Notes under the pieces: model-generated | Seen by the model: the letters and a program-made list of their open reading frames with translations, nothing else | Database searches by the model: none | Told to the model about the DNA's origin: nothing | Source: a virus | IMG/VR virus record: IMGVR_UViG_3300027857_000012 | Span: 32,001-96,000 of that record | Length of the DNA stretch: 64,000 nt | Strand: one strand, 5' to 3' | In this document: piece by piece, positions 8,172 to 52,889 of the stretch | Position numbering within the stretch: position 1 is the stretch's first letter | Layout of the letters: each line of letters begins with the position of its first letter | Translations under genes and position numbers: made by a program

Positions 8172-8492
8172 ATGCCAATTAGTCCATGGACACTTGGTCA
8201 ACTTTCTCCGATTTGGACAATTGTTCTTGCTCGAGACAGTAAACCAATGGATCTGACTGGTGTCACGGTCAATCAATTAAGTTTGTTACTCTACAACGGT
8301 AATCATGCCCAAACAGGGACAGGTGCAGGGACATTTACCATCATTGATACAAATCCAGGCGTTATTACATACCAACTTGTTACTGCTGACGTCCCTGTGG
8401 TCACCGGCACTTATTATGTACGAGTCAAAATTAATTTCAATAATGTCGCACCTGATATGTCAGATTATGTGACGTGGACAATTCAAGCATGA
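8172..8492 (+). CDS. BppU N-terminal-like Ig-fold virion protein
   Basis: PMDLTG...GVITYQL...GTYYVRVKI motif. Confidence 0.55.
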   Translation: MPISPWTLGQLSPIWTIVLARDSKPMDLTGVTVNQLSLLLYNGNHAQTGTGAGTFTIIDTNPGVITYQLVTADVPVVTGTYYVRVKINFNNVAPDMSDYVTWTIQA

Positions 8493-8504
8493 AGTGAGAA
8501 ACAT

Positions 8505-8930
8505 ATGGCAGAACCACTCTTTAATGTCACATGGGATTCAGCATCACTCGGTGCGATTGCCAATTTGAATAATTTTAGTAGTTTTTTGGACCCAGAAATG
8601 GTTGTTGCGCTGACTGAAATTGGTGATTTGATTGTACAAGCAGCCATTTCGAATACATGGTCTGTATTTTCGAGTCCAAGCGGGCAACTTGCAAGTGCGA
8701 TTACTTCGTCACTCACTGGCCCACTCGAGGTGATTGTTGAAGTCGGTGTTCCATATGCATGGAGAATGGAAGAGGGTTTTTTTGGAACAGATAGTCTCGG
8801 TCGAACATACAACCAGGAACCAAAACCCTATATTTTGCCAGCAATACAAGATAATGAAGATCAAATTATGGTCTTAATGAATCTCGCAGCAGCAAATGCT
8901 ATTGCAAAAATTGCACCAGGAGGCATTTAA
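8505..8930 (+). CDS. HK97 gp10-like tail completion protein
   Basis: GQLASAI...VPYAWRMEEG...PKPYILPA motif. Confidence 0.7.
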   Translation: MAEPLFNVTWDSASLGAIANLNNFSSFLDPEMVVALTEIGDLIVQAAISNTWSVFSSPSGQLASAITSSLTGPLEVIVEVGVPYAWRMEEGFFGTDSLGRTYNQEPKPYILPAIQDNEDQIMVLMNLAAANAIAKIAPGGI

Positions 8931-40334: not shown

Positions 40335-40356
40335 CATTTCTACTCCGCCACTTTCA

Positions 40357-40398
40357 TTCAAGCGACTGACTTCGTGTTGGTCGCTTGAATTCTTTTTG
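40357..40398 (+). terminator. Rho-independent terminator
   Basis: ttcaagcgac...gtcgcttgaa followed by ttcttttt. Confidence 0.65.
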
Positions 40399-40455: not shown

Positions 40456-40484
40456 TTTACTTTTTGCGCATAACATGTTATAAT
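40456..40484 (+). promoter_or_regulatory. promoter driving the tRNA/ncRNA array
   Basis: TTTACT-17-TATAAT; near-identical to the 26254 promoter. Confidence 0.75.
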
Positions 40485-41102: not shown

Positions 41103-41175
41103 TACAAACTAGCTCACTTGGTAGAGCGCTTGACTTCTAATCAGGATGTAACTGGTTCGATTCCAGTGTTTGCTC
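41103..41175 (+). tRNA. tRNA-Arg(UCU), acceptor end mismatched
   Basis: Cloverleaf; loop cttctaa. Confidence 0.7.
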
Positions 41176-41218
41176 CTTCGGGAGTTGTTCGTTCAACTCG
41201 GACAGGAGAGAAATGTGG

Positions 41219-41340
41219 GGGTGTTCCGAGTTCGGCAAATGCGGACTTGTTCTTTCACCAAGAAGCGGTCTGACCTTCGTAAGAAGTTCAGTAAACTGGT
41301 GAAAATGCAAGGAGAGGTGGTTCGACTCCATCAGCACCCA
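41219..41340 (+). ncRNA. tRNA-scaffolded RNA with long rod replacing the anticodon arm
   Basis: Acceptor gggtgtt/agcaccc-a, T-arm ggtgg ttcgact ccatc, rod cttgt..tttcacca/tggtgaaa..gcaag. Confidence 0.65.
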
Positions 41341-41598
41341 TTACATCATTGGTCCACTCTGTTTTGGATCCAGGACAGGTGCTCTTAATGGTGTAAACAC
41401 TTCAAGCCCTTCTCAAGTAGCATGCAGCTCTAAGTTCCACTGCTTTGACTCTCACCACGGGAGGAAGTAAGGGAGGCAGGCGATTCGCTTTAAGTCCCTA
41501 AGACTATGAGGATATCAGCTTGAAGATGATCAGCAAATGACCACGTCCCCTTGAACGACAAGTACACGTTCAGAGAGAGTGCCGATTTGCTGATCTGT

Positions 41599-41682
41599 GG
41601 AGGGAACCCGAGCTGGTTAAGGAGACTGTCTTGAAAATAGTTAGACGGCAACGTCTTGTGGGTTCGATTCCTACTCCCTCCG
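41599..41682 (+). tRNA. tRNA-Ser(UGA)
   Basis: Cloverleaf with long variable arm; loop cttgaaa. Confidence 0.9.
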
Positions 41683-41744
41683 TGTTTTCTCTGAATGTAT
41701 CACTCCGAAACGGCAATTCATCTGCGCATTCAGAGAAAATTTCT

Positions 41745-41815
41745 GCCTCTTTCGTTCAACGGTAGGATGCCCATTTCGTACGAGGAAGACGACTGTTCAA
41801 TTCAGTCAAGAGGCT
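41745..41815 (+). tRNA. atypical tRNA, possibly Thr(CGU), with poorly paired anticodon stem
   Basis: Perfect acceptor and T stems; loop ttcgtac. Confidence 0.55.
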
Positions 41816-41882
41816 TGCTCCTTCTACACATATTCACGATATTCTCCTAAAATATGTGCAGGACAATGTAGAAGGGGTTTTT

Positions 41883-41955
<73 letters not shown>

Positions 41956-42005
41956 TCCACTCATTGCCGTGGGGGCTACGGGTGGTATAGTGTTGAAAAT
42001 CAAGG

Positions 42006-42079
42006 AAGCGGTGCCTGATTGTAGGTGAAATTGTGTAGGCTCATTACCTATACTGTTGGTTCAAATCCAATCACTGCTT
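42006..42079 (+). ncRNA. D-armless tRNA-like RNA
   Basis: aagcggtg/cactgctt stem and T-arm gttgg ttcaaat ccaat; a single hairpin in place of the D and anticodon arms. Confidence 0.5.
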
Positions 42080-42148
42080 TAAGAATCAGTATGAACAGAA
42101 CTCCTTTCTTAATATCCTGGTAGAATATATTCATACTGATTCTTTTCT

Positions 42149-42314
42149 GCTCTCGTCGTCCAGCGGTCTAGGACATTCGTATGCTTTTTATCTTCCTTGC
42201 AGTGATTCTAGATATACTGCCACAAAGAAGTTACTTGTGTAGCTGCCAAGGCGTTTCTTTGCAACAGGTAGAGAGGGTACGAAAGGCCTTGGTTCGAATC
42301 CAAGCACGAGAGCC
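42149..42314 (+). ncRNA. tRNA-scaffolded RNA with ~100-nt multibranch insert
   Basis: gctctcg/cgagagc, D-arm gtcc agcggtcta ggac, T-arm cttgg ttcgaat ccaag; insert closed by ttcgta/tacgaa. Confidence 0.75.
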
Positions 42315-42318
42315 TTTT

Positions 42319-42391
42319 GTCTTCGTCGTCTAGTGGTCTAAGACGGTGGTCTCCAAAACCACTTACGGAGGTTCGAGTCCTTCCGAAGGCG
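42319..42391 (+). tRNA. tRNA-Trp(CCA)
   Basis: Cloverleaf; loop ctccaaa. Confidence 0.9.
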
Positions 42392-42490
42392 TGAGCCGTG
42401 GACTGCTACGATCGCTAGCTCGTCACGGGCCTTGTGCGGAACATAGTCCGCTATGTGACAAGAATCAAGGGTACAGAGAACGCAGTATCT

Positions 42491-42563
42491 GGTGCATTAG
42501 GCGAATGGTCAAGCCGCTACCCTGTCACGGTAGAGAATACGAGTTCAACTCTCGTATGCGCCG
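42491..42563 (+). tRNA. tRNA-Asp(GUC)
   Basis: Cloverleaf; loop ctgtcac. Confidence 0.9.
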
Positions 42564-42606
42564 TTCCATATCTTGCATTTTCGCCATTGTACGGCAAGAT
42601 ATGTAC

Positions 42607-42679
42607 CCCGATATGGTGAAATCGGCAAACACCTAGGGCGAGGGGCCCTAGAGTGAGGGTTCGAGTCCCTCTATCGGGA
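42607..42679 (+). tRNA. atypical tRNA (Leu-type D arm, no variable arm, U-less anticodon loop)
   Basis: cccgata/tatcggg; anticodon hairpin ctagggc gaggg gccctag. Confidence 0.55.
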
Positions 42680-42719
42680 GTGGGCCGACTGGAGCTCATA
42701 CCTCTTGACAAGCAGGTCC

Positions 42720-43025
42720 AAGAGAGACAACTCTTCAAACCGTGGGGTCCTCCGATAGTGCTGGACTAGACTGGCTTTTCTGCACTGCGACAGTCAAACG
42801 AAACGCAATGCGTGGTAGTGGAAACACTATCGCCGTCGGGTAGGTTAATGATGCAGCAGACCCGCAAACCGACGTCCTTCCGAGGGATGTGAGTGCACCC
42901 GCACCGAAGGAAAACTGGAAACACCTCTCTTCTGCATAAAGGGAGCATGAGCACTTTCGTTGCTGAGGAGCCAACGACGGATGTGGCATCCGATGGAATG
43001 TTCTGTAGAGCATTCTTGCTCCTCT
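42720..43025 (+). ncRNA. candidate large structured RNA
   Basis: Multiple helices (tgcac/gtgca, tggtagtg gaaa cactatcg, gtcgg/ccgac, gtcctt/agggat); no credible ORF. Confidence 0.45.
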
Positions 43026-43141
43026 CGGTCACTGATAACTCAACGGTAGAGTTTCACTCCAACAGGTCATGCTGAAAATCGACTGCAATGTTGACTCTGC
43101 AGAGATGGAGTAGTAAAAGGTTCGACTCCGCACAGTGATCG
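43026..43141 (+). ncRNA. tRNA-scaffolded RNA with ~45-nt insert
   Basis: cggtcactg/cagtgatcg, D-arm actc aacggta gagt, actcca/tggagt closing the insert, T-loop ggttcgactcc. Confidence 0.6.
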
Positions 43142-43243
43142 TTCGGGATAGGGGTATTCTGCCATTTTCCTGATGTGAAATCAGGTTCCCTACAAAGTTA
43201 CACTGATTTCACGACAACGGGGTATGATGATTGCCATACCTTT

Positions 43244-43316
43244 GGGGATATAGCTCAATTGGAAGAGCGCTGCTGTTGCAGAGCAGAGGTTAGGGGTTCA
43301 AGTCCCCTTATCTCCA
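43244..43316 (+). tRNA. tRNA-Ala(UGC)
   Basis: Cloverleaf with G3:U70; loop gttgcag. Confidence 0.9.
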
Positions 43317-43317
43317 T

Positions 43318-43553
43318 CTCCCTTCACTTGGTGGATCAATCTACGAGGCGAACTGGAGTCTTTCTTGGCCGGCGGTCTAGCCCACCGACGTAGACGGGTG
43401 GAATTTGGTGGAATCACCAATTCAGTGCTACAATAGCTATCACTGATGCAAAACGATTCAACACTGCAAGCCTCGCGATAAGGCGATCCTGAAGCATTGT
43501 CAAGGATATTCCGAACTGAGCTATCGGTGAGGAAGATATCGCATTCATGGGAG
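43318..43553 (+). ncRNA. structured RNA leader upstream of endonuclease
   Basis: Closed by ctccc/gggag (the RBS); several hairpins; atagct/agctat loop complementarity. Confidence 0.45.
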
Positions 43554-43559
43554 TGTAAT

Positions 43560-44198
43560 ATGTCTTTCAAAAATAAACATCATTCCAATGAAGCCAAACA
43601 AAAAATTTCTGCTGCTGCAAAAAGGTCTGGTGAAAAAAATGGCAACAATGGGAATACGTTTAGTGGCCATTATCATTCTGCTGAAACAAAAGCAAAAATA
43701 GGTGCAAATACAAAGAAAATATTAACAGGAAAATCATTACCATCCATTCAAAAACAACATATTTCAAAATCGTTAATTGGTAAAACGTATTTAAATAGAA
43801 AAGTTTCAGATGATGGTAAAAAGAGACTTTCAAAAAGCAGAATAAAGTTTTGGGAACCTTTGACTGATGAAGAGAGACAAAAACGAACTAATCATTTGAC
43901 ACAGCAGAGTGCAAAGTTTCAAGGTACAAAACCAGAATGCATTTTTGAAGAGATACTTATTAATAATAATATTCAATTCGAAAAACAAAAATGGATTAAA
44001 AGGTATAAAGTTGATTTCTATCTTCCCGAAAGAAATTTGATCGTCGAAATACAAGGATGTTACTTTCATGGATGTGAGCAATGTGGACATAATTCTGAAA
44101 AACAATTACAAGCGAGAGATAATGATAACTCCCGAAAATTAAATTTAGAAAAATTAGGATATCAAGTGAAGTTCATTTGGGAACATGAACTTGTATAA
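43560..44198 (+). CDS. NUMOD3 + DUF559/Vsr-like homing endonuclease
   Basis: HSNEAKQKIS and HSAETKAKIG NUMOD3 motifs; TKPE, VDFY, VEIQGCYFHGC, D..RK..L...GY.V..IWE; AT-rich. Confidence 0.8.
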   Translation: MSFKNKHHSNEAKQKISAAAKRSGEKNGNNGNTFSGHYHSAETKAKIGANTKKILTGKSLPSIQKQHISKSLIGKTYLNRKVSDDGKKRLSKSRIKFWEPLTDEERQKRTNHLTQQSAKFQGTKPECIFEEILINNNIQFEKQKWIKRYKVDFYLPERNLIVEIQGCYFHGCEQCGHNSEKQLQARDNDNSRKLNLEKLGYQVKFIWEHELV

Positions 44199-44209
44199 TC
44201 TTACAACGA

Positions 44210-44309
44210 GAGAGAGTGGCAGAATGGTATTGCGCCTATCCGTAAGATGGGTCTATCGTTCCCGTGCGCAAGGGTGATAGAATTGTTGGTTCGATTCCAG
44301 CCTCTCTCA
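44210..44309 (+). tRNA. tRNA-Tyr(GUA) with extra-long variable arm
   Basis: Loop ccgtaag; ~35-nt variable region. Confidence 0.75.
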
Positions 44310-44312
44310 TAC

Positions 44313-44385
44313 GCAATCGTAACTCAATGGACAGAGTGACAGTCTTCGAAACTGTTTGTTGGTGGTTCGAGTCCACTCGATTGCA
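44313..44385 (+). tRNA. tRNA-Arg(UCG)
   Basis: Cloverleaf; loop cttcgaa. Confidence 0.9.
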
Positions 44386-44387
44386 TT

Positions 44388-44459
44388 CGTACTATAGATT
44401 AGCAGGAAGATCATCGCAACGGGACATGCGAGGCGGTAGTTCGAACCTACCTAGTACGT
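44388..44459 (+). tRNA. tRNA-Pro(GGG)-like with 8-nt anticodon loop
   Basis: tcgca acgggaca tgcga; C1:G72. Confidence 0.6.
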
Positions 44460-44534
44460 TGTTGAGTGATGACAACGCTGTGTGAGTCTCCTTTCGAGTG
44501 TCTCTCGAATCTGCCAATTATTCGAGAGACATGC

Positions 44535-44605
44535 ACAATCGTAGCTCAATGGGAGAGCAGTGTCCTGATACGGCATTGACGGAGGTTCGATTCCTTCCGA
44601 TTGTA
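44535..44605 (+). tRNA. tRNA-Ile(GAU)
   Basis: Cloverleaf; loop ctgatac. Confidence 0.9.
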
Positions 44606-44806
44606 TGCGTCCGCCCGAAGAAAGAGGATGATTGCAACAAGATCGTCCGATGATGGCTGCGGATAACACATGGGATTGGCTCCCCATTGACTGACGATCC
44701 AATCAGAAGAGGAAGAGCACGACTGCAGAGATCATGTTGGGGCGATCGCATCAAAAGACATGAGGGCTGAAAGATGTTTCGCAGAGCAAATTGTGTTTTG
44801 GATCAT

Positions 44807-44879
44807 GTGGGCGAAGTTCAAGAGGTTGAATACGGCGTTGCCAACGCTGAGGTAGTCAGTTCGAGTCTGACCGTCCGCT
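44807..44879 (+). tRNA. tRNA-Gly(GCC)
   Basis: Cloverleaf; loop ttgccaa; U73. Confidence 0.9.
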
Positions 44880-44973
44880 TTCTCTCCATGTTTTCTGTAT
44901 CGCCGTTCCTGGATGCTACTTTTACCAGGGTTCCGTATCCAGATGTATATACGAAAGTATGGAGAGATTTTTT

Positions 44974-45075
44974 GGGACTCTAGTGTACAGTGCACACTCT
45001 CGATGTATGGCCATACGGGACGAGAGAGGATCAGACGGCTGACGAGTCGTTCGGTGCAATTCCCTGAGACGTCCC
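44974..45075 (+). ncRNA. degenerate tRNA-scaffolded RNA
   Basis: gggac/gtccc, D-arm gtgt/acac, elongated arm ending in a ggcc tetraloop, T-like loop ggtgcaattcc. Confidence 0.45.
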
Positions 45076-45221
45076 TTCAACCATGGCTCTGCCCGTACAG
45101 GGAGTGCGCAGTCCCCTGTGGATCGCTTTGCGGTTCGTTCGTGCGTCGAATGTCGGAGTCATGGAACTGCGCTATTTTGAGGTTCTTTTCTCGTCCTCCT
45201 TGGTGTGTGATTGGGGATCAA

Positions 45222-45300
45222 GAGCGTATTGCCCTTAGTGTCGGCGATGCTAAACGGGTTCATACCCCGGTTGATGGTTCAAATCCATCCAGTACGCTCA
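45222..45300 (+). tRNA. atypical CAU tRNA (10-bp acceptor, long D stem)
   Basis: gagcgtattg/cagtacgctc; ttagtgtc ggc gatgctaa; cggg ttcatac cccg; T-arm gatgg ttcaaat ccatc. Confidence 0.55.
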
Positions 45301-45307
45301 TATTTGT

Positions 45308-45418
45308 ATGAGTGCTGTGAATTTGTCCGTTCAACTCGGACCACTCATTTCTGGGTGAAACCAGATCGTCTCCAGGTAGCAGAATGACGCGCTGAGATGC
45401 GTTGCCATTCGACTCATG
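45308..45418 (+). ncRNA. circularly permuted tRNA mimic (YrlA/Y-RNA-like topology)
   Basis: Order: outer stem, T-arm gtccg ttcaact cggac, closed acceptor cactca tttc tgggtg, D-like arm acc...ggt, outer stem. Confidence 0.55.
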
Positions 45419-45476
45419 TGGCAAACAATATGAGTTTTCCTTTCGTTTTATGCAGGAAGGATCAACATATAAGAGT

Positions 45477-45869
45477 ATGCGCACTGCTTCCCAACATGTT
45501 TCAGATTGGGCTTCCACCGTTGTTCGGCAATGTGGAACATGTCACTCTGCTCGTACTCTTATATTCGAGGAGAAAATATGCACACTGAGATGCGATATGT
45601 GTGAAAAGAGTATTGTTGAAACACACAATGCACCACGTCGAACATTTGAATCAATTCAAAATCCATCAGTGTTGTGTTGGTGGAATGATATTGGAGGAAT
45701 CGACTGTCCAAACGTTGCGACGCTCGTGTGTTCGATTCACCCGTTTTATCATGTTTGTGATGAACATAGTGACTCATGTTATGCATGTGTTGTTGAATGG
45801 TCGAATATGTTTCCTGTAGAAAGTGCACCTGCACCTGTTGTTGATGCAATTATAATCGACCTCTTGTAG
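45477..45869 (+). CDS. Cys-rich (zinc-binding) hypothetical protein
   Basis: Several CxxC motifs; stop codon lies inside tRNA-Asn. Confidence 0.55.
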   Translation: MRTASQHVSDWASTVVRQCGTCHSARTLIFEEKICTLRCDMCEKSIVETHNAPRRTFESIQNPSVLCWWNDIGGIDCPNVATLVCSIHPFYHVCDEHSDSCYACVVEWSNMFPVESAPAPVVDAIIIDLL

Positions 45870-45934
45870 CTTAATGGTCAAGCGTCAAACTGTTAATTTG
45901 AAAGATGTTCGTTCGAATCGAGCCGAGAGGGCCA
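45860..45934 (+). tRNA. tRNA-Asn(GUU)
   Basis: Cloverleaf; loop ctgttaa; G73-CCA. Confidence 0.9.
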
Positions 45935-46124
45935 CCTTCTTCTACATCGATCATGGTTTTGCCTATTCTCCCTGATCGTCCCAGAAGTAAAGGAGTGCGT
46001 AGTATTGCGGGCAGAGAACAGGTGCACTCGCTATTTTAAGGACACAGTATGCAGCAAAATCATCCATGGGATCATCCACCCAAGACTGAGCCTTCTGAAA
46101 CACGAAGGCAGAAAGGTGGAATAT

Positions 46125-46277
46125 ATGCGAAAAATGTACAAGAGGAAAAGCAGATCACTCTGTTCAATGTGTAAAATGCACAAAACTGGAAGAGCATGTC
46201 GATGGGTAGGTCGTGAACGTGAAGCCAGAATTCGATTTGCTCGAGAAAAACGATGCTATCTTGGCCCTGTCGTTTAG
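46125..46277 (+). CDS. small basic CxxC protein
   Basis: gaaaggtgg RBS; MRKMYKRKSRSLCSMCKMHK. Confidence 0.55.
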   Translation: MRKMYKRKSRSLCSMCKMHKTGRACRWVGREREARIRFAREKRCYLGPVV

Positions 46278-46334
46278 TGGCAGGATATCCCTCTTTCACA
46301 GGGAAGATGTCGGGTTCGATTCCCGCCAGGGCTA
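46263..46334 (+). tRNA. tRNA-Glu(UUC)
   Basis: Cloverleaf; loop ctttcac. Confidence 0.9.
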
Positions 46335-46352
46335 TTAATCAGAGGAGGTGTT

Positions 46353-46646
46353 ATGGAAACAGGAGGTATGTTCGAACCATCTCAATCAGTGCATCCAGAA
46401 TGTAGTCGAAAACGACAATATCGTCTCTATCGGTTGCTCCACTTGATTGAGTTCTGCCAAATGGTTGCTGTATTTGTTCTCGTAACAAATCATGCAGCAG
46501 AAATATCTGTTCTATTGTGTATATGTGCACTCTTTGTTGCACATCTAGTATGTACGATAGTCTCTTCTGAGTTGTTCGAACTGCAAATACAACAGACAAA
46601 ATACGACTCGTTTGAGCATGAAGATGAAATGTATGATTGGATGTAA
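46353..46646 (+). CDS. small membrane protein
   Basis: ggaggtg RBS; two hydrophobic segments. Confidence 0.6.
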   Translation: METGGMFEPSQSVHPECSRKRQYRLYRLLHLIEFCQMVAVFVLVTNHAAEISVLLCICALFVAHLVCTIVSSELFELQIQQTKYDSFEHEDEMYDWM

Positions 46647-46650
46647 TTGT

Positions 46651-46721
46651 TCGTCTCTGGTGTAATGGTAACACGAGTGGCCTTGGACCACTTATTCTCT
46701 GTTCGAATCGGAGGAGACGAG
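46651..46721 (+). tRNA. tRNA-Gln(UUG)
   Basis: U1:A72, G73; loop ccttgga. Confidence 0.85.
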
Positions 46722-46836
46722 TTCAGGGCAGGTGCAAAGAACACTGTTTTAAGCTTTTTTACACCTTCGGGTGTCCTTCACCATTGAACGTTGTTCTTTG
46801 GACTGTTCTGAAAGGGAACGAGTTCGCTCGTTCTTT

Positions 46837-46921
46837 GTCTGAGTAGTGTAAGAGAAACACACCTCATGATCGGCCTTGCAAACACATTGAGGAAATAAGA
46901 GTGCAAGTCTCTTCTCAGACA
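46837..46921 (+). ncRNA. tRNA-scaffolded RNA with 21-nt anticodon loop
   Basis: gtctgag/ctcagac-a, D gtgt/acac, cctca/tgagg, T-arm aagag tgcaagt ctctt. Confidence 0.7.
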
Positions 46922-46922
46922 G

Positions 46923-47335
46923 TCGCTTTAATCACAAAGCGAACTGATCGTATCGAACAACTCAATAATAGCATCCTCGGAGGCTCTCTGTTGCAGGAGA
47001 TGCTAACGAAGTGTACCCGCACTTGGATGCTGCAGCAGAAGCAATTCTGCCCACATCGATGGGAGGAGGGCTGTCTTCTTCCAATCGAATACGATCTTGA
47101 TCACCTGAGCATGTTTAAGTGCTGTTACAGCGTGACACAGTGCTGAAGGATGCTCGCGAGGTGCCCCTGAGGGATCAGTTAGGTCGCACCTAACCACCTC
47201 GTCCATGCCACGCCCGCAACGTGGCAGATGTTCGATGAACGAACTGCGCGAGACCACTTTCGTGCACAGTAGACTTCTCTTGTGGGAAGTGGTTCCCAGA
47301 GGAGGACATTGCGGCTGGGGTCGAGTGACCCCAGT
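46923..47335 (+). ncRNA. ~410-nt ornate multi-pseudoknot RNA candidate
   Basis: Many nested helices and three loop-mediated long-range complementarities. Confidence 0.55.
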
Positions 47336-47337
47336 TC

Positions 47338-47410
47338 CTGGGTGTAGGATAGCAGCAAGTCCGTCTGCCCTGGGAGCAGAAGATCGAGGGTGCGAGTCCC
47401 TCCACTCAGA
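47338..47410 (+). tRNA. tRNA-Pro(UGG)
   Basis: C1:G72, A73; loop cctggga; T-loop tgcgagt. Confidence 0.85.
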
Positions 47411-47486
47411 CATGATGCTGCCACGACAGCATCAAGTGTTCTTTTCACAGTGCTTTTGACCATTGCTGTGTTGTGAAAAGAACGTT

Positions 47487-47557
47487 GCTCGTTTAAGTGA
47501 GTGGTACACTGTCTGGCTTCCAACCAGAATGCGCGAGTTCGATTCTCGTAACGAGCT
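47487..47557 (+). tRNA. tRNA-Gly(UCC)
   Basis: Cloverleaf; loop cttccaa. Confidence 0.9.
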
Positions 47558-47656
47558 TTCACCCATTTCCCAATAAGTGGGTGAAACAGGCTGTCCCATC
47601 AGCCACCTATCCTTGCTATCCCTCTGGAACTACTGTGCTATTTTCAGAGGGATCGA

Positions 47657-47727
47657 CGCGGGTTAGTGGAGTAGTACCACGTGGGGTTCATAGTCCTAAA
47701 ACGTCAGTGCAAATCTGACACCCGCTA
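47657..47727 (+). tRNA. initiator-type tRNA-Met(CAU)
   Basis: C1 unpaired; G-rich anticodon stem; loop ttcatag. Confidence 0.8.
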
Positions 47728-47744
47728 TATTTTAAAAGGTCGAT

Positions 47745-48044
47745 ATGCGAATTCACTACGATCATGTCGTCGGAAAATGGATGTTACTGTTTGGAGAACG
47801 TGCATTTCTCCATTCTGTCAATGAATGGAATCAATTTGGACAATCGTTTAATTGGTATACATTTCATATCTGGACGTGTGAAGTCGAGTATGATGAAATG
47901 CTTCCTGGACTTGATGTCAGGATCATTTTATTTGGTCTTGGGCTTCGATTTCGACATAATCGAAATTGGGAAGGATCGGAAGCACAGTCGATTTTTGAAC
48001 ATGCGCTCAAAGAAATTCGTGAGTTGCATGAAAATGGATTATAA
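47745..48044 (+). CDS. hypothetical protein
   Basis: aaaggt RBS; fits between two tRNAs. Confidence 0.6.
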   Translation: MRIHYDHVVGKWMLLFGERAFLHSVNEWNQFGQSFNWYTFHIWTCEVEYDEMLPGLDVRIILFGLGLRFRHNRNWEGSEAQSIFEHALKEIRELHENGL

Positions 48045-48125
48045 GTGGCATTGGCAGAATGGTATTGCACTTGCCTGTAGAGCAAGCACCTTCGGGTACT
48101 GGGGGTTCGAATCCCTCATGTCACA
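48045..48125 (+). tRNA. tRNA-Tyr(GUA)
   Basis: Cloverleaf with variable hairpin; loop ctgtaga. Confidence 0.9.
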
Positions 48126-48127
48126 TT

Positions 48128-48303
48128 GGAGTCATCGTCTAGGTGGAAGGACAGTTACATATTCTCAGAAGATCATGCACGTATTTGTGGAGAGATGGCT
48201 ACATATCTTACATGATCTTTTGGCAGTGCGGTTCCATGAGTAGGGGCACAAAATGCCATGAGGAAACATGTGACAAACAGTCGTTCGAGTCGACTTGACT
48301 CCA
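48128..48303 (+). ncRNA. tRNA-scaffolded RNA with ~110-nt insert
   Basis: ggagtca/tgactcc-a, D-arm gtct..ggac, gttacat/atgtgac closing the insert, T-arm agtcg ttcgagt cgact. Confidence 0.75.
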
Positions 48304-48334
48304 TTCGGAAGTCTCCTTCCGAAATTGTTGGGAC

Positions 48335-48366
48335 AAAGGCGCACTCATACAATAAGTGCGCCTTTC
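48335..48366 (+). terminator. terminator-like hairpin ending the RNA array
   Basis: aaaggcgcact...agtgcgccttt. Confidence 0.55.
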
Positions 48367-48385
48367 ACTGAATTGAGAAATACAA

Positions 48386-48646
48386 ATGAACTCTGAAGGA
48401 AGTGTTCGCGTTGCATTCGATTTTGAACTCGGTGCATTGGATCAACTTGATCAACTTGTCGAGAAAACACATGCACCAAAACGTGCAACCGTTGTTGGAA
48501 ACGCGCTCCGTGTCTATGGACAACTTGTAAATGAAATTGATCCAGTGCGTCATCCTTGGTTCGTGTTCAAAGTTGAAGACGATCAAGGGCATCTCGTGTA
48601 CACAATAAATATGAAAGCATTACTATTAGGTGAGAATGACGCATGA
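48386..48646 (+). CDS. ribbon-helix-helix-like DNA-binding protein
   Basis: VRVAFDF...LDQLDQL...KRATVVGNAL pattern. Confidence 0.55.
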   Translation: MNSEGSVRVAFDFELGALDQLDQLVEKTHAPKRATVVGNALRVYGQLVNEIDPVRHPWFVFKVEDDQGHLVYTINMKALLLGENDA

Positions 48647-49014
48647 AACGACTTTTGCTCTTGTGTGTTTTCTGCGTCTTCGCCGTAGCATGTTCTGGTG
48701 GGCCAACACCTCAAGAAACAAGTACGACACCAACAACATGCCATGTCGCATCGACGCAACGCATTCATAATTCGACAGTCTTTTTGCAGAAATGCACAGA
48801 GAGTGATTTTGTTGCGATAAGCAATCAGCATGTTGTGCCGACAAATGTCTCATGCACAGAGACGTTAGCAACGCATGAAACGCAATTCGATATTCCTGCA
48901 ATTGAAGGGACAGGGAATACACAACTCTGTACTCTTTCAGCAAATTGGAAATCTGCCATGATCACATGGACAGATGATACACAGAATCACACAGTCACAT
49001 TTTCAAATTCGTAA
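48643..49014 (+). CDS. lipoprotein
   Basis: MKRLLLLCVFCVFAVAC lipobox. Confidence 0.7.
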   Translation: MKRLLLLCVFCVFAVACSGGPTPQETSTTPTTCHVASTQRIHNSTVFLQKCTESDFVAISNQHVVPTNVSCTETLATHETQFDIPAIEGTGNTQLCTLSANWKSAMITWTDDTQNHTVTFSNS

Positions 49015-49040
49015 TGCAATGCATGTCATAAGAGAGTACG

Positions 49041-49268
49041 ATGCGTCGATTCGGGGAAGTAGCGTTTCCATTTCTTCTTGCTGCTTCATCATTATTACTA
49101 TTTTTTACTGTATTGTATGCATTTCTCTATAATTTCATTTATCTGTTCGTCTGGTTTCTCTGGTATTTTATTGGTGCACTGTGGCTTGTCTCATTCTTTT
49201 TCATGCTTATGACAGCAAAAGAAGAGAAACGACGAGCACAGAAGTATCATCGAAAAACGCCGAATTAG
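49041..49268 (+). CDS. small membrane protein
   Basis: Two TM segments and a basic tail; stop lies inside tRNA-Thr. Confidence 0.6.
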   Translation: MRRFGEVAFPFLLAASSLLLFFTVLYAFLYNFIYLFVWFLWYFIGALWLVSFFFMLMTAKEEKRRAQKYHRKTPN

Positions 49269-49331
49269 CTCAGTGGTAGAGCACCGTTTTTGTAAATCGG
49301 ATGTCGTGGGTTCGATCCCCTCATTCGGCCT
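49259..49331 (+). tRNA. tRNA-Thr(UGU)
   Basis: Cloverleaf; loop tttgtaa. Confidence 0.85.
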
Positions 49332-50087: not shown

Positions 50088-50108
50088 CATACTCGCCTCT
50101 CTGTCTCG

Positions 50109-50140
50109 AGGGAAGGATCGTCGATCCTTCCCTTTTTTTT
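50109..50140 (+). terminator. Rho-independent terminator
   Basis: agggaaggatcg/cgatccttccct followed by a T-run. Confidence 0.85.
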
Positions 50141-50222: not shown

Positions 50223-50253
50223 TATGCTATCAAAACATGTACGGAGGAGAAAA

Positions 50254-51315
50254 ATGGTTCAAACGACACAAAATGGTGCAAGTGCACCACCAGTTGTACA
50301 TAATGCGTTACTCGATATTACGAAAGTGCCGAAGCTTGTTGGCACAGAACCCGCGAGGAAGGCACGACATTTGTTGAAAGTTGTCGAAAATACAACGATT
50401 CCACTTTACCTTATCGGACCAAGTGGTTCAGGCAAAACAGCGACAATGAAAGCTGTAGGAAAGGTGTACAGCCACACACACAAAGTGCCATGTTATTATG
50501 TACAGCTTTCACCAGAAGACACAAAAACGTCGATTTTCTTAGGGCATCGAATTATTCGTGGCAGTCTCGAGGTTGTCGAAGGCGTGATGGCAATTGCTGC
50601 ACAGCAGAAAGCAATCGTGCTCGTTGACGAAATCACGCATTCAACACACCAGATGTTGTTGATGTTCAACAGTCTTGATGGCGGCGATTCAGTCATCACG
50701 ATTGGTGACAGAGCGATTAATGCTGATGGAATGCGTGTGATTTATGGGTCAAATGCATCGACCCATGCGGGAAATATTCGAGTTCCGCAAAGTTTTGCAA
50801 ATCGAGTTATCTCATTTGCATTTGAATATCCTGAATTTGAAGATGAATTGGTCATCGCAAAAGACATTGCACGTCGCAATTGGTTGGGGTCAACACCTCT
50901 TGATGTACCTGATGCTGTGATTACATTTCTGACATCATTCGTGCGTGAGAAACGACGACCTGATTGGCCTTTGAGTGCTAGAAATATCGCGCACGGCATC
51001 CTCCTCGCGCAGCTCGCGGAAATAAAACACCCTGAAATGAGTGCAAAAGCAAATAAGATCGCAGACTACTTCACGAAAAATCAAAACATTGCTGCGTCCA
51101 GACAAAATATCGCAACTCGACTGCAAATTGTTGCAAAAGACGCAACGGCATTGCAGAGGCCAGAGATTGGGGAATTTCTTGAATTTGTCTCAAAGACCGG
51201 TGTTGAAGAATTTAAGCAACTCGTCCTTTCGGCAGTGAATTTTCATGTCGATATGGAAGGCATGGATGTATTCGACACGTCGCTTAGACAAGACGTGCTG
51301 AGTACAATCATTTAA
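50254..51315 (+). CDS. MoxR/CobS-like AAA+ ATPase
   Basis: GPSGSGKT, VLVDEI, SN, ANR, FEYP, SAR. Confidence 0.85.
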   Translation: MVQTTQNGASAPPVVHNALLDITKVPKLVGTEPARKARHLLKVVENTTIPLYLIGPSGSGKTATMKAVGKVYSHTHKVPCYYVQLSPEDTKTSIFLGHRIIRGSLEVVEGVMAIAAQQKAIVLVDEITHSTHQMLLMFNSLDGGDSVITIGDRAINADGMRVIYGSNASTHAGNIRVPQSFANRVISFAFEYPEFEDELVIAKDIARRNWLGSTPLDVPDAVITFLTSFVREKRRPDWPLSARNIAHGILLAQLAEIKHPEMSAKANKIADYFTKNQNIAASRQNIATRLQIVAKDATALQRPEIGEFLEFVSKTGVEEFKQLVLSAVNFHVDMEGMDVFDTSLRQDVLSTII

Positions 51316-51333
51316 AATTATAAACATAAACGA

Positions 51334-51362
51334 TGTACTTTTTGTTTACTTTGTGATATAAT
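51334..51362 (+). promoter_or_regulatory. promoter (phage consensus)
   Basis: TGTACT-17-TATAAT with TG. Confidence 0.75.
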
Positions 51363-51383
51363 TGATTTAAATGAGGTACACAT

Positions 51384-52889
51384 ATGCATCAGTCTGTGTT
51401 GAGGCCATTGCACCTCATTCGAGGTGAGAACGTCTCTCTTGAGGAGACGACTGACTTGAATGCACCAGTGGCATCGGTGTCATTTATCAAAAACGAAAAC
51501 AAGTATACTATTCGAATCAATCATCCGAAAGCGAGAACACTCTACACAGCGTCGATGTTGAATGGAAAAGTATCATACAATGAATTTGTTGTGGGGCTTT
51601 TATATCATGAAGTGTTCCACATCTTGTTCAAATCATTTGACGTTTTGTCACCGATTCCAACAGAGTTTTTCAAATTCGTGCACAATGTTCTTCTCGATGC
51701 TCAAATTGAATATCAAGGCACGTTGAAATACCCATCTGTATCAACGTATCTTCGGTGGATTTTATCAGCACTTCGACGTGATACAGATATGGTGCAGATC
51801 GAATCAATGAAGGGTGGAAGCACACTTGTTCAAATGAAGGATGATTTCTTTTACTTAGTTCGGTTTGGTGTGGTGACACCCCATATGGATCCGCATTTCC
51901 GTGACTTTCTTATTCCGCTCATTTTAAGTGCCGTTCGACTGGATGTTTCGAATGTGATGTTGGTCACGAGGGCTGTCTATGAATACTTCATGACGACAGC
52001 CGAATCGCAAGAACTTGTCACTGCAATGTCTCGACTCGCGCCAGGATCTTTTCGCCCGTTAAATGCAGGTGATCTAGAAGTGATTGGTGAAGCAGAGCAA
52101 GTGCTTTCGTCAAATCTCAAAGATGTGCTTGATGAGGTGCAGAACACGCCTGATACTGGAAAAATGCCTGGATCCGAGCTACGTGACATCAGCGTTGAAG
52201 AGAAGGATACAGCATTTTATCGGTCAACCGTTGCAAAGTATGCAGAAACGATTACACTTATTCGAAATGCATTTAAGAGGAAGCTAAATGCGGTCGGACC
52301 ATGTCCCACATTTGATGGCGACATGAATTTAGCACGTCAACAGCAAGCATATGTCAATAGTTTAACGGGTGATTCAGATCGAGATTACTTGGTCATGAAA
52401 CCCGTTGACCTTAGTGTTGATGTTGTTGTTATTCGTGACATTTCTGGATCGACTGCAGGAATTCAGAAAGAATATGCTGAAATGACCGTATGTTTACTCG
52501 CTTCTGTTCAGCAACTTCGAGGTGTCCGATCTGCGGATATCGATTTTTCGACAACAGCTGTCGCACTTCTGGATTTCGATAAATCCATTCGGGAAGCACG
52601 CTTGTTCCCACGAGCAGATGGTGGAACGAACCTTGCACCAGCGTATCAATTAGCATTGAATATGCGGTGGCAGTCAAAACGTCGTATTATCCACGTCATT
52701 ACTGACGGTGGATTTGGTGATAGTTACAAGGATGATGAAGCGAAACTGCTTGCACGAGGCGTTAAAATCTTCAAGTGGTTGTTGCTCGAGCCAAATGAAA
52801 TGGGCGGTTCGTATTCGAATGGACTTCGAAAGACGTCCGTGAGCACATTTGGTGTCGACATTGCGAAAAGTATTCTAGGAGAACTTTAA
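51384..52889 (+). CDS. HExxH metallopeptidase-like + vWA protein (CobT/NorD-like partner)
   Basis: LLYHEVFH...NVLLDAQIE; DISGS, GGTNL, ITDG. Confidence 0.8.
   Translation: MHQSVLRPLHLIRGENVSLEETTDLNAPVASVSFIKNENKYTIRINHPKARTLYTASMLNGKVSYNEFVVGLLYHEVFHILFKSFDVLSPIPTEFFKFVHNVLLDAQIEYQGTLKYPSVSTYLRWILSALRRDTDMVQIESMKGGSTLVQMKDDFFYLVRFGVVTPHMDPHFRDFLIPLILSAVRLDVSNVMLVTRAVYEYFMTTAESQELVTAMSRLAPGSFRPLNAGDLEVIGEAEQVLSSNLKDVLDEVQNTPDTGKMPGSELRDISVEEKDTAFYRSTVAKYAETITLIRNAFKRKLNAVGPCPTFDGDMNLARQQQAYVNSLTGDSDRDYLVMKPVDLSVDVVVIRDISGSTAGIQKEYAEMTVCLLASVQQLRGVRSADIDFSTTAVALLDFDKSIREARLFPRADGGTNLAPAYQLALNMRWQSKRRIIHVITDGGFGDSYKDDEAKLLARGVKIFKWLLLEPNEMGGSYSNGLRKTSVSTFGVDIAKSILGEL

What the first reader, a model, noticed from the sequence alone, without database searches (positions are those of the whole stretch)
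46923..47335. ~410-nt ornate RNA with three long-range loop pairings
Nested helices include gatcgtatcga/tcgaatacgatc, tagcatcc/ggatgctg, cacctgagcat/atgctcgcgaggtg, tgccacg/cgtggca and ctggggtc/gaccccag. The long-range pairings are gctgt(47070)/acagc(47127), accact(47253)/agtggt(47288) and ccgcaa(47214)/ttgcgg(47309). It is flanked directly by a tRNA-like RNA and tRNA-Pro, so tRNA processing would excise it. Large ornate RNAs such as GOLLD and ROOL occur near phage tRNA clusters, but I do not recognise this sequence as either.
Basis: partly seen in the sequence, partly recalled or inferred. Interest (0 to 1): 0.7.

Follow-up and report, generated by a model that had tools for sequence, protein, structure and literature searches.

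The report
Orphan folded RNA in phage tRNA operon
A roughly 415-base stretch between a tRNA look-alike and a proline tRNA gene of an uncultured 134-kb soil phage is non-coding and folds far more tightly than chance, so it is probably a new structured RNA, but no relative was found and its role is unknown.

Summary
The + strand folds to -175.4 kcal/mol (z -7.5, 0 of 100 shuffles as good). The minus strand reaches only z -2.8. Each sub-domain is significant on the + strand alone.

No Rfam family matches, even at E<=10, so it is not ROOL, GOLLD, tmRNA or Y RNA. Overlapping ORFs look non-coding.

The three "long-range loop pairings" are at chance level: 4 seen against 3.95 expected.

It sits in the phage's single tRNA operon, between a tRNA-like element and tRNA-Pro.

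No homologue was found in any collection I could reach, so covariation is untestable. No RNA data exist.

Neighbouring short spacers carry the same long perfect hairpins, so a purely cis-acting spacer remains a serious rival.

Earlier AI notes of this scan report other large RNAs in phage tRNA arrays on other DNA. None shares sequence with this one.

Verdict: a plausible orphan member of a known kind, with moderate interest.

The parts
46650..46722 (+). tRNA-Gln(ttg), upstream limit of the 615-nt spacer
   Evidence: ARAGORN; Rfam tRNA 51.5 bits
46723..46834 (+). Leader part of the spacer. It holds a long imperfect hairpin (46723-46811, about 24 bp) and an 8-bp hairpin (46815-46834). It may belong to the same RNA or be a double-strand processing site.
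   Evidence: Helix probabilities 0.84-1.0; z -5.45 on +, -3.94 on -
46836..46922 (+). tRNA-like element with acceptor, D, T arms and an anticodon stem carrying a 21-nt loop. It abuts the 5' end of the RNA.
   Evidence: ARAGORN only at relaxed settings (ps90 with a 14-nt intron, or ps80). Not listed by the Rfam tRNA model at E<=10. Own fold z only -1.67.
46923..46942 (+). 5' hairpin H1 (7 bp, 6-nt loop)
   Evidence: P 0.93; z -4.19
46946..47096 (+). Domain D1, a four-way junction. It is closed by 46946-46953/47089-47096 and has arms 46969-47032 (branched), 47035-47050 (GCAA loop) and 47056-47088.
   Evidence: Arms P 0.63-1.0, closing helix P 0.40; z -4.52 on + versus -1.02 on -; model R2
46948..47242 (+). 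Alternative long-range closing helix 46948-46959 / 47229-47242. It would enclose D1, D2 and the 47206 hairpin in one roughly 295-nt multi-branched core. It excludes the D1 closing helix.
   Evidence: P 0.8 when 46923-47337 is folded alone (also the MFE)
47107..47202 (+). Domain D2: hairpin 47107-47155, then Y-shaped 47156-47202
   Evidence: P 0.84-1.0 and 0.70-0.97; z -3.14 on + versus -1.01 on -; model R3
47104..47119 (+). 16-nt segment perfectly antisense to the Shine-Dalgarno region of a phage ORF outside the window (genome 8316-8331, ORF 8339-8827)
   Evidence: 15 of 1000 shuffles reach 16 nt; both partners are buried in hairpins. A lead only.
47206..47336 (+). Domain D3, a row of hairpins: 47206-47226 (7-nt loop CCCGCAA), 47230-47244, 47245-47266 (loop CCAC), 47269-47312 (loop GUGG) and 47313-47336 (10 bp), ending 1 nt before tRNA-Pro.
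   Evidence: P 0.47-0.98; z -5.53 on + versus -2.62 on -, with 8 G-U of 48 pairs; model R1
47338..47411 (+). tRNA-Pro(tgg). Cleavage of its 5' end by RNase P would make the 3' end of the RNA (inferred).
   Evidence: ARAGORN; Rfam 53.1 bits; cloverleaf drawing
40456..40484 (+). Promoter-like site (TTTACT-17-TATAAT with TG), directly after terminator-like hairpin 40356-40390. Candidate start of the tRNA operon.
   Evidence: This is a consensus match only: 17 sites were found against 19.1 expected.
50108..50134 (+). Strong terminator-like hairpin (12 bp plus a T run) after the last tRNA. Candidate end of the tRNA operon.

Best explanation
Window 46923-47335 is not a protein gene. It is a + strand, strongly self-folding, non-coding RNA inside the only tRNA operon of an uncultured 134-kb tailed soil phage.

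Inferred mechanism:
- The operon is transcribed as one precursor, from the promoter-like site at 40456 to the terminator at 50108.
- RNase P cutting at the 5' end of tRNA-Pro (47338) makes the RNA's 3' end.
- 3' processing of the upstream tRNA-like element (46836-46922) makes its 5' end.
- The released RNA of about 415 nt is protected by a 5' hairpin and a 10-bp 3' hairpin.

The fold is a multi-branched core followed by a row of stable hairpins. The core is either a 150-nt four-way junction or a 295-nt closed multiloop.

I read it as a discrete stable RNA of the same kind as the large or stable RNAs already known from phage tRNA islands (ROOL, GOLLD, T4 RNA C and D). It is not a member of any of those families. 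Its trans function is unknown. The claimed knotting by three loop pairings is not supported.

Shown: the structure signal, the strand, the lack of coding signal, the context, and the absence from Rfam. Inferred: transcription, processing, stability and a trans role.
For: Folding:
- MFE -175.4 kcal/mol, z -7.53, 0 of 100 shuffles as good.
- The minus strand gives -148.9, z -2.79.
- Domains D1, D2 and D3 give z -4.5, -3.1 and -5.5 on the + strand against -1.0, -1.0 and -2.6 on the minus strand. 19 of 137 pairs are G-U.
- Seven consecutive 300-nt windows from 46550 to 47749 have z <= -2.99. The minimum of the 65 array windows, -6.55, is at 47150-47449.
- GC is 53%, against 43% for the genome.

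Not coding:
- The 4 overlapping ORFs have no Pfam match at E<=1.
- Their codon scores are -0.17 to -0.02. Real coding windows score 0.435 +/- 0.145.
- The 81-aa + strand ORF has no homologue and was not even called as a gene in the protein collection.

Context:
- All 18 ARAGORN tRNAs of the genome lie in this one + strand array.
- Terminator-like hairpins bracket the array and a promoter-like site follows the first.
- tRNA-Pro starts 1-2 nt after the last hairpin, and a tRNA-like element ends at 46922.

Not a known family or a repeat:
- 0 non-tRNA Rfam families at gathering score (21 matches, all tRNA).
- Nothing relevant at E<=10.
- The stretch is single copy in the genome.

The kind exists: passages of Kretsch et al. 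(10.1101/2024.12.08.627333) say ROOL and GOLLD are encoded in phages and prophages, often near tRNA islands. [quoted passage not shown]
Against: - There is no homologue, so no covariation: selection on the fold is unproven.
- There is no expression or end-mapping data. The only run holding the stretch is the probable source DNA run.
- The signal is not unique in this genome. In a 300-nt scan of the whole genome, 10 of 298 windows have z < -4, and the two windows on this RNA rank 8th and 9th. That scan used 15 shuffles per window and is noisy.
- Of 10 shorter pieces of the array folded (whole spacers or parts), the two spacers next to tRNA-Pro and tRNA-Gly (47412-47486, z -3.69; 47558-47656, z -5.79) are built of the same long perfect hairpins. 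That fits a generic cis role for spacer hairpins.
- Many stems are long and perfect (7-10 bp). That is less typical of old conserved ncRNAs than of young or processing hairpins (my judgement).
- The global closing helix is ambiguous: P 0.40 for one pairing, 0.8 for the other, depending on context.
- The nearest accessible relative (L005 = L018, 50% ATPase identity) has a short array with no large spacer: ARAGORN finds 5 tRNAs and Rfam 6. The long spacers of L008 that I folded appeared, by my reading of the sequence, to hold small ORFs instead.
Confidence: 0.45

Rival explanations
1. Cis-acting spacer. The stretch has no function as a free RNA. It is a run of stable hairpins in the polycistronic tRNA precursor that keeps neighbouring, partly non-canonical tRNAs from misfolding together. 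The hairpins would also offer double-stranded entry sites for processing nucleases or block exonucleases. The spacer is degraded after processing.
For: Long perfect hairpins recur in other spacers of the same array:
- 47412-47486 (8-bp and 16-bp stems, z -3.69).
- 47558-47656 (11-bp and 12-bp stems, z -5.79).
- 44460-44534 (13-bp stem, z -2.04).
- 42081-42180 (15-bp stem, z -2.28).

The leader 46723-46811 is a duplex of about 24 bp. The local hairpins are robust (P > 0.9), while the long-range closure is ambiguous. No homologue was found.
Against: Over 400 nt and about 137 base pairs is much more than insulation or a cleavage site needs. 6 of the 10 pieces folded have no significant structure (z -1.32 to +0.55), so tRNAs in this array do not generally need such hairpins. 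The four-way junction D1 (z -4.5) is more than a simple hairpin.
Confidence: 0.3
2. Trans-acting antisense regulator. After release, the segment 47104-47119 pairs with the 5' untranslated region of a phage gene at genome 8339-8827 (outside the window). The pairing covers the start of that gene's Shine-Dalgarno sequence and changes its translation.
For: - A perfect 16-nt antisense match to genome 8316-8331. It ends inside AGGAG, 5 nt before the ATG of a 162-aa ORF.
- The pair is unique in the genome.
- 15 of 1000 dinucleotide shuffles of the RNA reach 16 nt anywhere in the genome.
- The duplex energy is -24.9 kcal/mol for the 16-mer.
Against: - This was found post hoc.
- Both partners are buried in their own hairpins. 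The opening costs of 12.9 and 13.0 kcal/mol cancel the 16-mer duplex energy.
- The target ORF has no known family.
- A naive duplex scan of 180 start regions did not single the target out, and that scan was not informative.
- There is no conservation test.
Confidence: 0.08
3. Decayed remnant. The stretch is what is left of former RNA genes (tRNAs, a tmRNA as in Streptomyces BE-cluster phages, or another ncRNA) and no longer has a function.
For: - The array holds several odd or tRNA-like elements.
- ARAGORN at 80% threshold calls a 'permuted tmRNA' over 46830-47363 with tag ARDHFRAQ*.
- The distant cultured kin NootNoot carries a tmRNA in its tRNA array, while this genome has none by ARAGORN.
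Against: - The tmRNA call vanishes at thresholds of 85% and above. It reuses the T arm of a tRNA-like element that already has its own acceptor stem, and its tag is not recognised.
- Rfam finds no tmRNA or tRNA match at E<=10 inside 46923-47335.
- Decay should erode helices, yet the fold is among the most stable in the genome.
Confidence: 0.07
4. Protein-coding. One of the overlapping ORFs (46901-47146 +, 47205-47459 +, 47003-47413 -, 47179-47562 -) is a real small gene, and the RNA structure is incidental.
For: Open frames of 81-136 aa exist. Other spacers of this array do hold small ORFs with coding-like codon scores, for example 47745-48044 (0.40) and 48386-48646 (0.54).
Against: - Codon scores are -0.17 to -0.02, below the 5th percentile (0.225) of real coding windows.
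- There are no Pfam hits at E<=1.
- No homologue was found for the 81-aa ORF.
- Three of the four ORFs overlap tRNA genes, and the fourth starts by GTG inside the T arm of the tRNA-like element.
- Two lie on the minus strand. 38 of the 46 ORFs of at least 150 aa are on the + strand, and each of the 8 on the minus strand lies inside a longer + strand ORF.
Confidence: 0.03
5. DNA-level element. The inverted repeats act in the DNA, for example as an origin, a recombination site or a protein-binding site, and not in RNA.
For: The region holds many perfect inverted repeats. The minus strand also folds better than chance (z -2.79).
Against: There is strong strand asymmetry: 26.5 kcal/mol, and z -7.5 against -2.8. 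19 of 137 pairs are G-U, which exist only in the + strand RNA. The location is inside a tRNA transcription unit.
Confidence: 0.03

Closest known systems
ROOL and GOLLD RNAs (large ornate RNAs of phages and prophages, in Rfam)
   Same: Large (over 400 nt), heavily base-paired, non-coding, phage-encoded, and sitting in or beside a tRNA island. The context is stated in passages of 10.1101/2024.12.08.627333. GOLLD can carry tRNAs in its linker, and here a tRNA-like element abuts the RNA.
   Different: No match to any Rfam model at gathering score or at E<=10. There is no family and no covariation-supported structure. The pseudoknots are not supported. It is smaller than GOLLD. Nothing is known about multimers.
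Phage T4 RNA C and RNA D (small stable RNAs of the T4 tRNA region)
   Same: Non-tRNA RNAs transcribed from a phage tRNA gene region with unknown roles (passage of PMC3014915). The presumed release by the tRNA-processing machinery is the same idea.
   Different: The T4 RNAs are much shorter (sizes recalled, not checked here). No sequence or model of them was available to compare, so homology is untested.
tmRNA of Streptomyces BE-cluster phages (for example NootNoot, NC_042009.1)
   Same: A non-tRNA structured RNA embedded in the tRNA array of a roughly 131-kb siphophage. That phage shares gene order with this one: DnaE-like polymerase, UvsX/RecA, Cas4-like nuclease, RuvC, then the tRNA array.
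   Different: ARAGORN finds no tmRNA at default or at thresholds of 85% and above. Rfam finds none. There is no acceptor pairing of the two ends, no T arm and no credible tag. The kinship is distant, at 31-34% polymerase identity.
Other large RNAs in phage tRNA arrays noted earlier in this scan (AI notes e1-5885740, e1-6013234, e1-6058500, e1-5922890)
   Same: Same kind of place (gaps between tRNA genes of uncultured phages) and no Rfam match. One note also describes a soil phage spacer as a string of modules rather than one giant RNA.
   Different: Those notes report conserved homologues, and this RNA has none that I could reach. No shared short words with any other window were found. I could not see their sequences.

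Membership tests
ROOL RNA (Rfam) | Match to the family covariance model | tested here: not met
   cmscan of all 4227 Rfam 15 families. No ROOL match at gathering score on the whole window, nor at E<=10 on 46700-47400 and 45900-48400.
GOLLD RNA (Rfam) | Match to the family covariance model, in particular the conserved 3' half | tested here: not met
   Same searches: no GOLLD match.
Large structured RNAs of phage tRNA islands (the kind, not a family) | Non-coding, several hundred nt, located within or beside a phage tRNA cluster on the tRNA strand | tested here: met
Large structured RNAs of phage tRNA islands (the kind, not a family) | Secondary structure kept by covariation across homologues | not testable with these tools
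   No homologue was found.
- blastn of GenBank phages: none.
- nhmmer and blastn on 16 related loci: none.
- Three single-sequence covariance models on 318,250 bases hit only themselves.
- The models found nothing in four whole records.
- Exact patterns in IMG/VR and GTDB contigs gave nothing real.
Large structured RNAs of phage tRNA islands (the kind, not a family) | Expressed as a discrete RNA | not testable with these tools
   Only one run holds the stretch. It is DNA and probably the source.
tmRNA | tRNA-like domain from paired 5' and 3' ends with a T arm, a resume codon and a tag reading frame; detection by ARAGORN or Rfam | tested here: not met
   Not found at the default threshold or at 95, 90 and 85%. 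It appears only at 80%, as a 'permuted' call with an unidentified tag. No Rfam tmRNA match.
Bacterial Y RNA (YrlA-like) with Ro60/Rsr | A Ro60 (TROVE) gene in the genome and a Y RNA model match | tested here: not met
   TROVE PF05731: 0 matches at E<=1 in the 134-kb genome, with the control positive in 2 of the 14 control genomes, the two listed as carrying a match. No Y RNA family in the Rfam searches.
tRNA (RF00005) | Cloverleaf model match inside 46923-47335 | tested here: not met
   No tRNA match inside the stretch at E<=10. ARAGORN at the relaxed threshold finds only the flanking elements.

The most novel reading that the evidence does not exclude
The RNA is the first seen member of a new class of large phage RNAs that ride in tRNA operons, are cut out by the host's tRNA-processing enzymes, and then act in trans. 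One possibility is a self-assembling or decoy scaffold. Another is that one arm (47104-47119) pairs across the ribosome-binding site of a phage gene 70 kb away. That would tie the output of the tRNA island to control of phage gene expression.
Probability: 0.15. Interest if true: 0.65.

Novelty: new member of a known kind. Interest (0 to 1): 0.35.

Why it matters
Phage tRNA islands keep turning up large folded RNAs whose function nobody knows. ROOL and GOLLD were recently shown to build RNA-only cages, yet their role in infection is still open.

Each independent, unrelated RNA in the same genomic niche strengthens the idea that the niche itself is what matters: co-transcription with tRNAs and free release by RNase P. 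This one is compact at about 415 nt. Its predicted ends are clean, at a tRNA-like element and at a tRNA. It would therefore be an easy substrate for testing whether tRNA processing really excises such RNAs, and whether they are stable, multimeric or regulatory.

As it stands it is a singleton without covariation or expression, so it is a candidate and not a discovery.

Tried and rejected
Homologue hunt (all negative or uninformative):
- blastn 'distant' of 46700-47420 against 50,697 GenBank phage records: no match.
- Exact patterns in IMG/VR: a tRNA-Pro 24-mer gave 0 stretches and a 19-mer of the RNA gave 0. An 18-mer gave 6 stretches, all negative with model R2, so chance.
- Two exact patterns in GTDB genome contigs: 0 and 0.
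- Neighbour ATPase 50224-51315 as a guide. 122 proteins were found, the best non-self at 56% identity. The single-protein scan of IMG/VR found none. Alignment scans gave L002-L004, L018 and L005-L017.
- nhmmer and blastn of the 615-nt spacer on those loci: nothing below E 0.37.
- Three single-sequence covariance models (R1-R3) on 18 sources (318,250 bases): only the window itself, 1 of 18 sources each.
- The models on whole records: R3 on all four (G001, G002, G003, NC_042009.1); R1 and R2 on G001 and G002 and on G003 and NC_042009.1. 0 matches. L005, L008 and L009 were not held and so were not searched as whole records.
- These blanks are weak evidence. tRNAs of the same anticodon are only 56-75% (11 pairs, L008) and 55-68% (4 pairs, L005) identical to this phage's.
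- tblastn of the ATPase against GenBank phages: no match.

Expression: no RNA holder was listed. One DNA run holds the stretch, probably the source, with no variant letters.

Considered and rejected:
- Permuted tmRNA.
- Y RNA with Ro60. The 501-aa neighbour 51384-52889 has only a VWA domain and no PDB sequence match. I did not fold it, because the pair looks like a MoxR/CobS-type ATPase with a VWA partner (the CobS/CobT naming is recalled).
- Internal repeats or paralogues: none, only tRNA T arms repeat.
- A 19-nt likeness between 46836 and 40883 does not extend.
- The long spacer of L008 before its tRNA-Pro is not notably folded. Its folded spacers seemed, by my reading of the sequence, to hold small ORFs.
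- The naive duplex scan of 180 start regions was uninformative.

Literature. Searches found no description of this RNA. I saw passages only of 10.1101/2024.12.08.627333, PMC10690425 and PMC3014915, and listings for the rest. The supplementary tables of PMC10690425 list candidate RNAs from IMG/VR and could bear on whether this stretch was already catalogued.
Full report
WHERE IT LIES. The window is bases 32001-96000 of a 134,001-base virus record that CheckV rates complete. The genome is 43.1% G+C.

The record looks like a tailed phage. It has a 1555-aa tape-measure protein, a head-tail adaptor, a primase, a DnaE-like polymerase, a UvsX-like recombinase, a Cas4-like nuclease and a RuvC-like resolvase.

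Its polymerase is at most 33.9% identical to anything in 50,697 GenBank phage records. Among the hits are the roughly 131-kb Streptomyces BE-cluster phages at 31-32%. Phage NootNoot has the same order of replication and recombination genes followed by a long tRNA array. The kinship is distant.

All 18 tRNA genes that ARAGORN finds in the genome lie in one + strand array at window 41103-49330. Rfam adds further tRNA-model matches, 21 in all, and nothing else. A terminator-like hairpin at 40356-40390 is followed by a promoter-like site at 40456-40484. A strong terminator-like hairpin at 50108-50134 follows the last tRNA. So the array is plausibly one transcription unit. This rests on consensus matches and is an inference.

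THE OBSERVATION. As RNA, the + strand of 46923-47335 folds to -175.4 kcal/mol, against -133.5 +/- 5.6 for dinucleotide shuffles (z -7.53, 0 of 100 as good). The reverse complement reaches only -148.9 (z -2.79).

Split into parts:
- D1 (46943-47100): z -4.5 on the + strand, -1.0 on the minus strand.
- D2 (47101-47202): -3.1 and -1.0.
- D3 (47203-47337): -5.5 and -2.6.
- 19 of the 137 predicted pairs are G-U.

The signal is therefore real, spread over the whole stretch, and specific to the strand that carries the tRNAs.

Two need correction:
- The outer helix gatcgtatcga/tcgaatacgatc needs a bulge and has P 0.40. The same 5' strand can instead pair with 47229-47242. That pairing has P 0.8 when the 415-nt RNA is folded alone and encloses a core of about 295 nt.
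- The CACCU/AGGUG extension of the third helix loses to a stronger alternative.

The three 'long-range loop pairings' do not stand out. I counted loop-centred complements of 6 nt or more and found 4. The mean is 3.95 when the unpaired bases are shuffled, and 52% of 500 shuffles reach 4.

The whole 615-nt spacer from tRNA-Gln to tRNA-Pro is structured (-245.5 kcal/mol). Upstream of the finding it holds a hairpin of about 24 bp (46723-46811) and a tRNA-like element (46836-46922). ARAGORN accepts the tRNA-like element only at relaxed thresholds, and the Rfam tRNA model does not list it at E<=10.

HOW SPECIAL IS THE FOLD? Within the array, seven consecutive 300-nt windows from 46550 to 47749 have z <= -2.99. 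The minimum of all 65 windows, -6.55, is at 47150-47449.

It is not unique in the genome, however. In a coarse scan of 298 windows (15 shuffles each, so noisy), 10 have z < -4. The two windows on this RNA rank 8th and 9th. The genome mean is -0.9.

I also folded 10 shorter pieces of the array, whole spacers or parts of them:
- The two spacers just downstream (47412-47486, z -3.69; 47558-47656, z -5.79) are built of the same long perfect hairpins.
- Two more have one long stem each (z -2.0 and -2.3).
- Six show nothing (z -1.32 to +0.55).

This is the main reason I keep a cis-acting 'hairpin spacer' as a serious rival.

NOT CODING. Four ORFs of 81-136 aa overlap the stretch.
- None has a Pfam match at E<=1.
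- Their codon scores, from a model trained on 38 long genes of this phage, are -0.17 to -0.02 per codon. Real coding windows score 0.435 +/- 0.145, with a 5th percentile of 0.225.
- Small ORFs in other spacers score up to 0.54.
- The 81-aa + strand ORF has no homologue among 5.8 billion clusters and is not itself on record as a called gene.

NOT A KNOWN RNA. Rfam 15 (4227 models) gives only tRNAs at gathering score. With permissive filters and E<=10 on 46700-47400 and on 45900-48400, the only match that touches the stretch is a weak minus-strand match to a human lncRNA model. It scores 19.2 bits against a 60-bit cut-off and spans 47308-47388, across the 3' end of the stretch and into tRNA-Pro.

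So the RNA fails the model test for ROOL, GOLLD, tmRNA, Y RNA, RNase P RNA and introns alike.
- ARAGORN calls a 'permuted tmRNA' only at 80% threshold. The call reuses the T arm of the tRNA-like element, and its tag is unrecognised. I reject it.
- The genome has no TROVE (Ro60) gene.

NO RELATIVES WITHIN REACH. The stretch is single copy. No match was found in any of these:
- GenBank phages.
- IMG/VR by exact patterns (the 6 hits are chance).
- GTDB contigs.

Only the probable source run holds the stretch, without variants.

I used the MoxR-like ATPase just downstream of the array as a guide and collected 16 distinct related loci. The closest, L005 = L018 at 50% identity, has a short tRNA array: ARAGORN finds 5 tRNAs and Rfam 6, with no large spacer. 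L008 (43%) has 16 tRNAs by ARAGORN with long spacers. The ones I folded appeared, by my reading of the sequence, to hold small ORFs.

Sequence searches and three single-sequence covariance models found nothing outside the window. This says little. Even same-anticodon tRNAs are only 55-75% identical between these phages. Covariation, the decisive test, therefore could not be run.

MECHANISM.
- Shown: a + strand-specific, non-coding, very stable fold inside the tRNA transcription unit. tRNA-Pro begins 1-2 nt after its last hairpin, and a tRNA-like element ends at its first base.
- Inferred: RNase P cleavage at tRNA-Pro and 3' processing of the tRNA-like element release an RNA of about 415 nt. 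Its terminal hairpins protect it. It then acts as a free RNA, as proposed for other RNAs of phage tRNA islands (passages for ROOL and GOLLD; for T4 RNAC and RNAD). I put this at 0.45.
- The cis-acting spacer reading gets 0.30.

One specific lead for a trans role came up. Bases 47104-47119 are a perfect 16-nt antisense match to genome 8316-8331. That target overlaps the Shine-Dalgarno sequence of a 162-aa ORF of unknown family. 15 of 1000 shuffles do as well anywhere in the genome. However, both partners are buried in hairpins whose opening costs cancel the duplex energy, and the find is post hoc. I put it at 0.08.

COMPARISON AND NOVELTY. It works like, or at least sits like, the large RNAs of phage tRNA islands, but it belongs to none of their families.

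Earlier AI notes of this scan describe several other unrelated RNAs in the same niche on other DNA. One is a soil-phage spacer read as a string of modules. None shares sequence with this one.

I therefore file it as a new, orphan member of a known kind. Interest is moderate. The structure signal is strong and the predicted ends are clean. Against that, there is no covariation and no transcript, the 'ornate, knotted' reading is not supported, and a mundane spacer role is not excluded.

Noticed in passing
window 47104-47119; partner at G000:C1:8316-8331 (L026:1817-1832), outside the window: A perfect 16-nt antisense match between the RNA and the Shine-Dalgarno region of a 162-aa ORF of unknown family. 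The pair is unique in the genome, and 15 of 1000 shuffles reach this length. Both partners are buried in hairpins.
   Followed up: partly
window 47412-47486 and 47558-47656: The two short spacers after tRNA-Pro and tRNA-Gly consist of long perfect hairpins (8, 16, 11 and 12 bp; z -3.69 and -5.79). The hairpin-rich zone therefore runs from 46723 to 47656, across three tRNA genes.
   Followed up: partly
window 48101-48400 and 43151-43450; genome 119701-120000 and 14401-14700 (outside the window): Other 300-nt windows fold as far beyond chance as this RNA, or further (z -6.5, -5.3, -6.6 and -5.6 in a noisy 15-shuffle scan). In total, 10 of 298 genome windows have z < -4.
   Followed up: no
window 44388-44459: ARAGORN calls a tRNA with a four-base anticodon (ggga) directly after tRNA-Arg(tcg). 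Rfam scores it 38.4 bits as a tRNA.
   Followed up: no
window 47338-47411: In ARAGORN's drawing, tRNA-Pro(tgg) has an anticodon loop that begins CC, so C stands where U33 is usual. Its T loop reads TGCGAGT rather than the usual TTCGA type. The tRNA-like element at 46836-46922 has a similar TGCAAGT loop.
   Followed up: no
window 43497-44198: A 233-aa ORF with HNH/homing-endonuclease PHROG matches sits inside the tRNA array in a stretch of only 30-36% G+C. It is likely a mobile insertion.
   Followed up: no
window 50224-52889; L005 9923-12595; L008 9950-11005: In this phage a tRNA array sits directly upstream of a MoxR-like AAA ATPase, which is followed by a 501-aa protein with a C-terminal VWA domain. 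The array-then-ATPase order recurs in L005 and L008. L005 has a 527-aa ORF after the ATPase, which I did not test for VWA.
   Followed up: partly
L019 (NC_042009.1 57000-100000): The distantly related Streptomyces phage NootNoot carries an annotated Ro RNA-binding protein, a tmRNA, an RNA ligase and a nucleotidyltransferase within or beside its tRNA array. This phage has no TROVE match and no ARAGORN tmRNA.
   Followed up: partly
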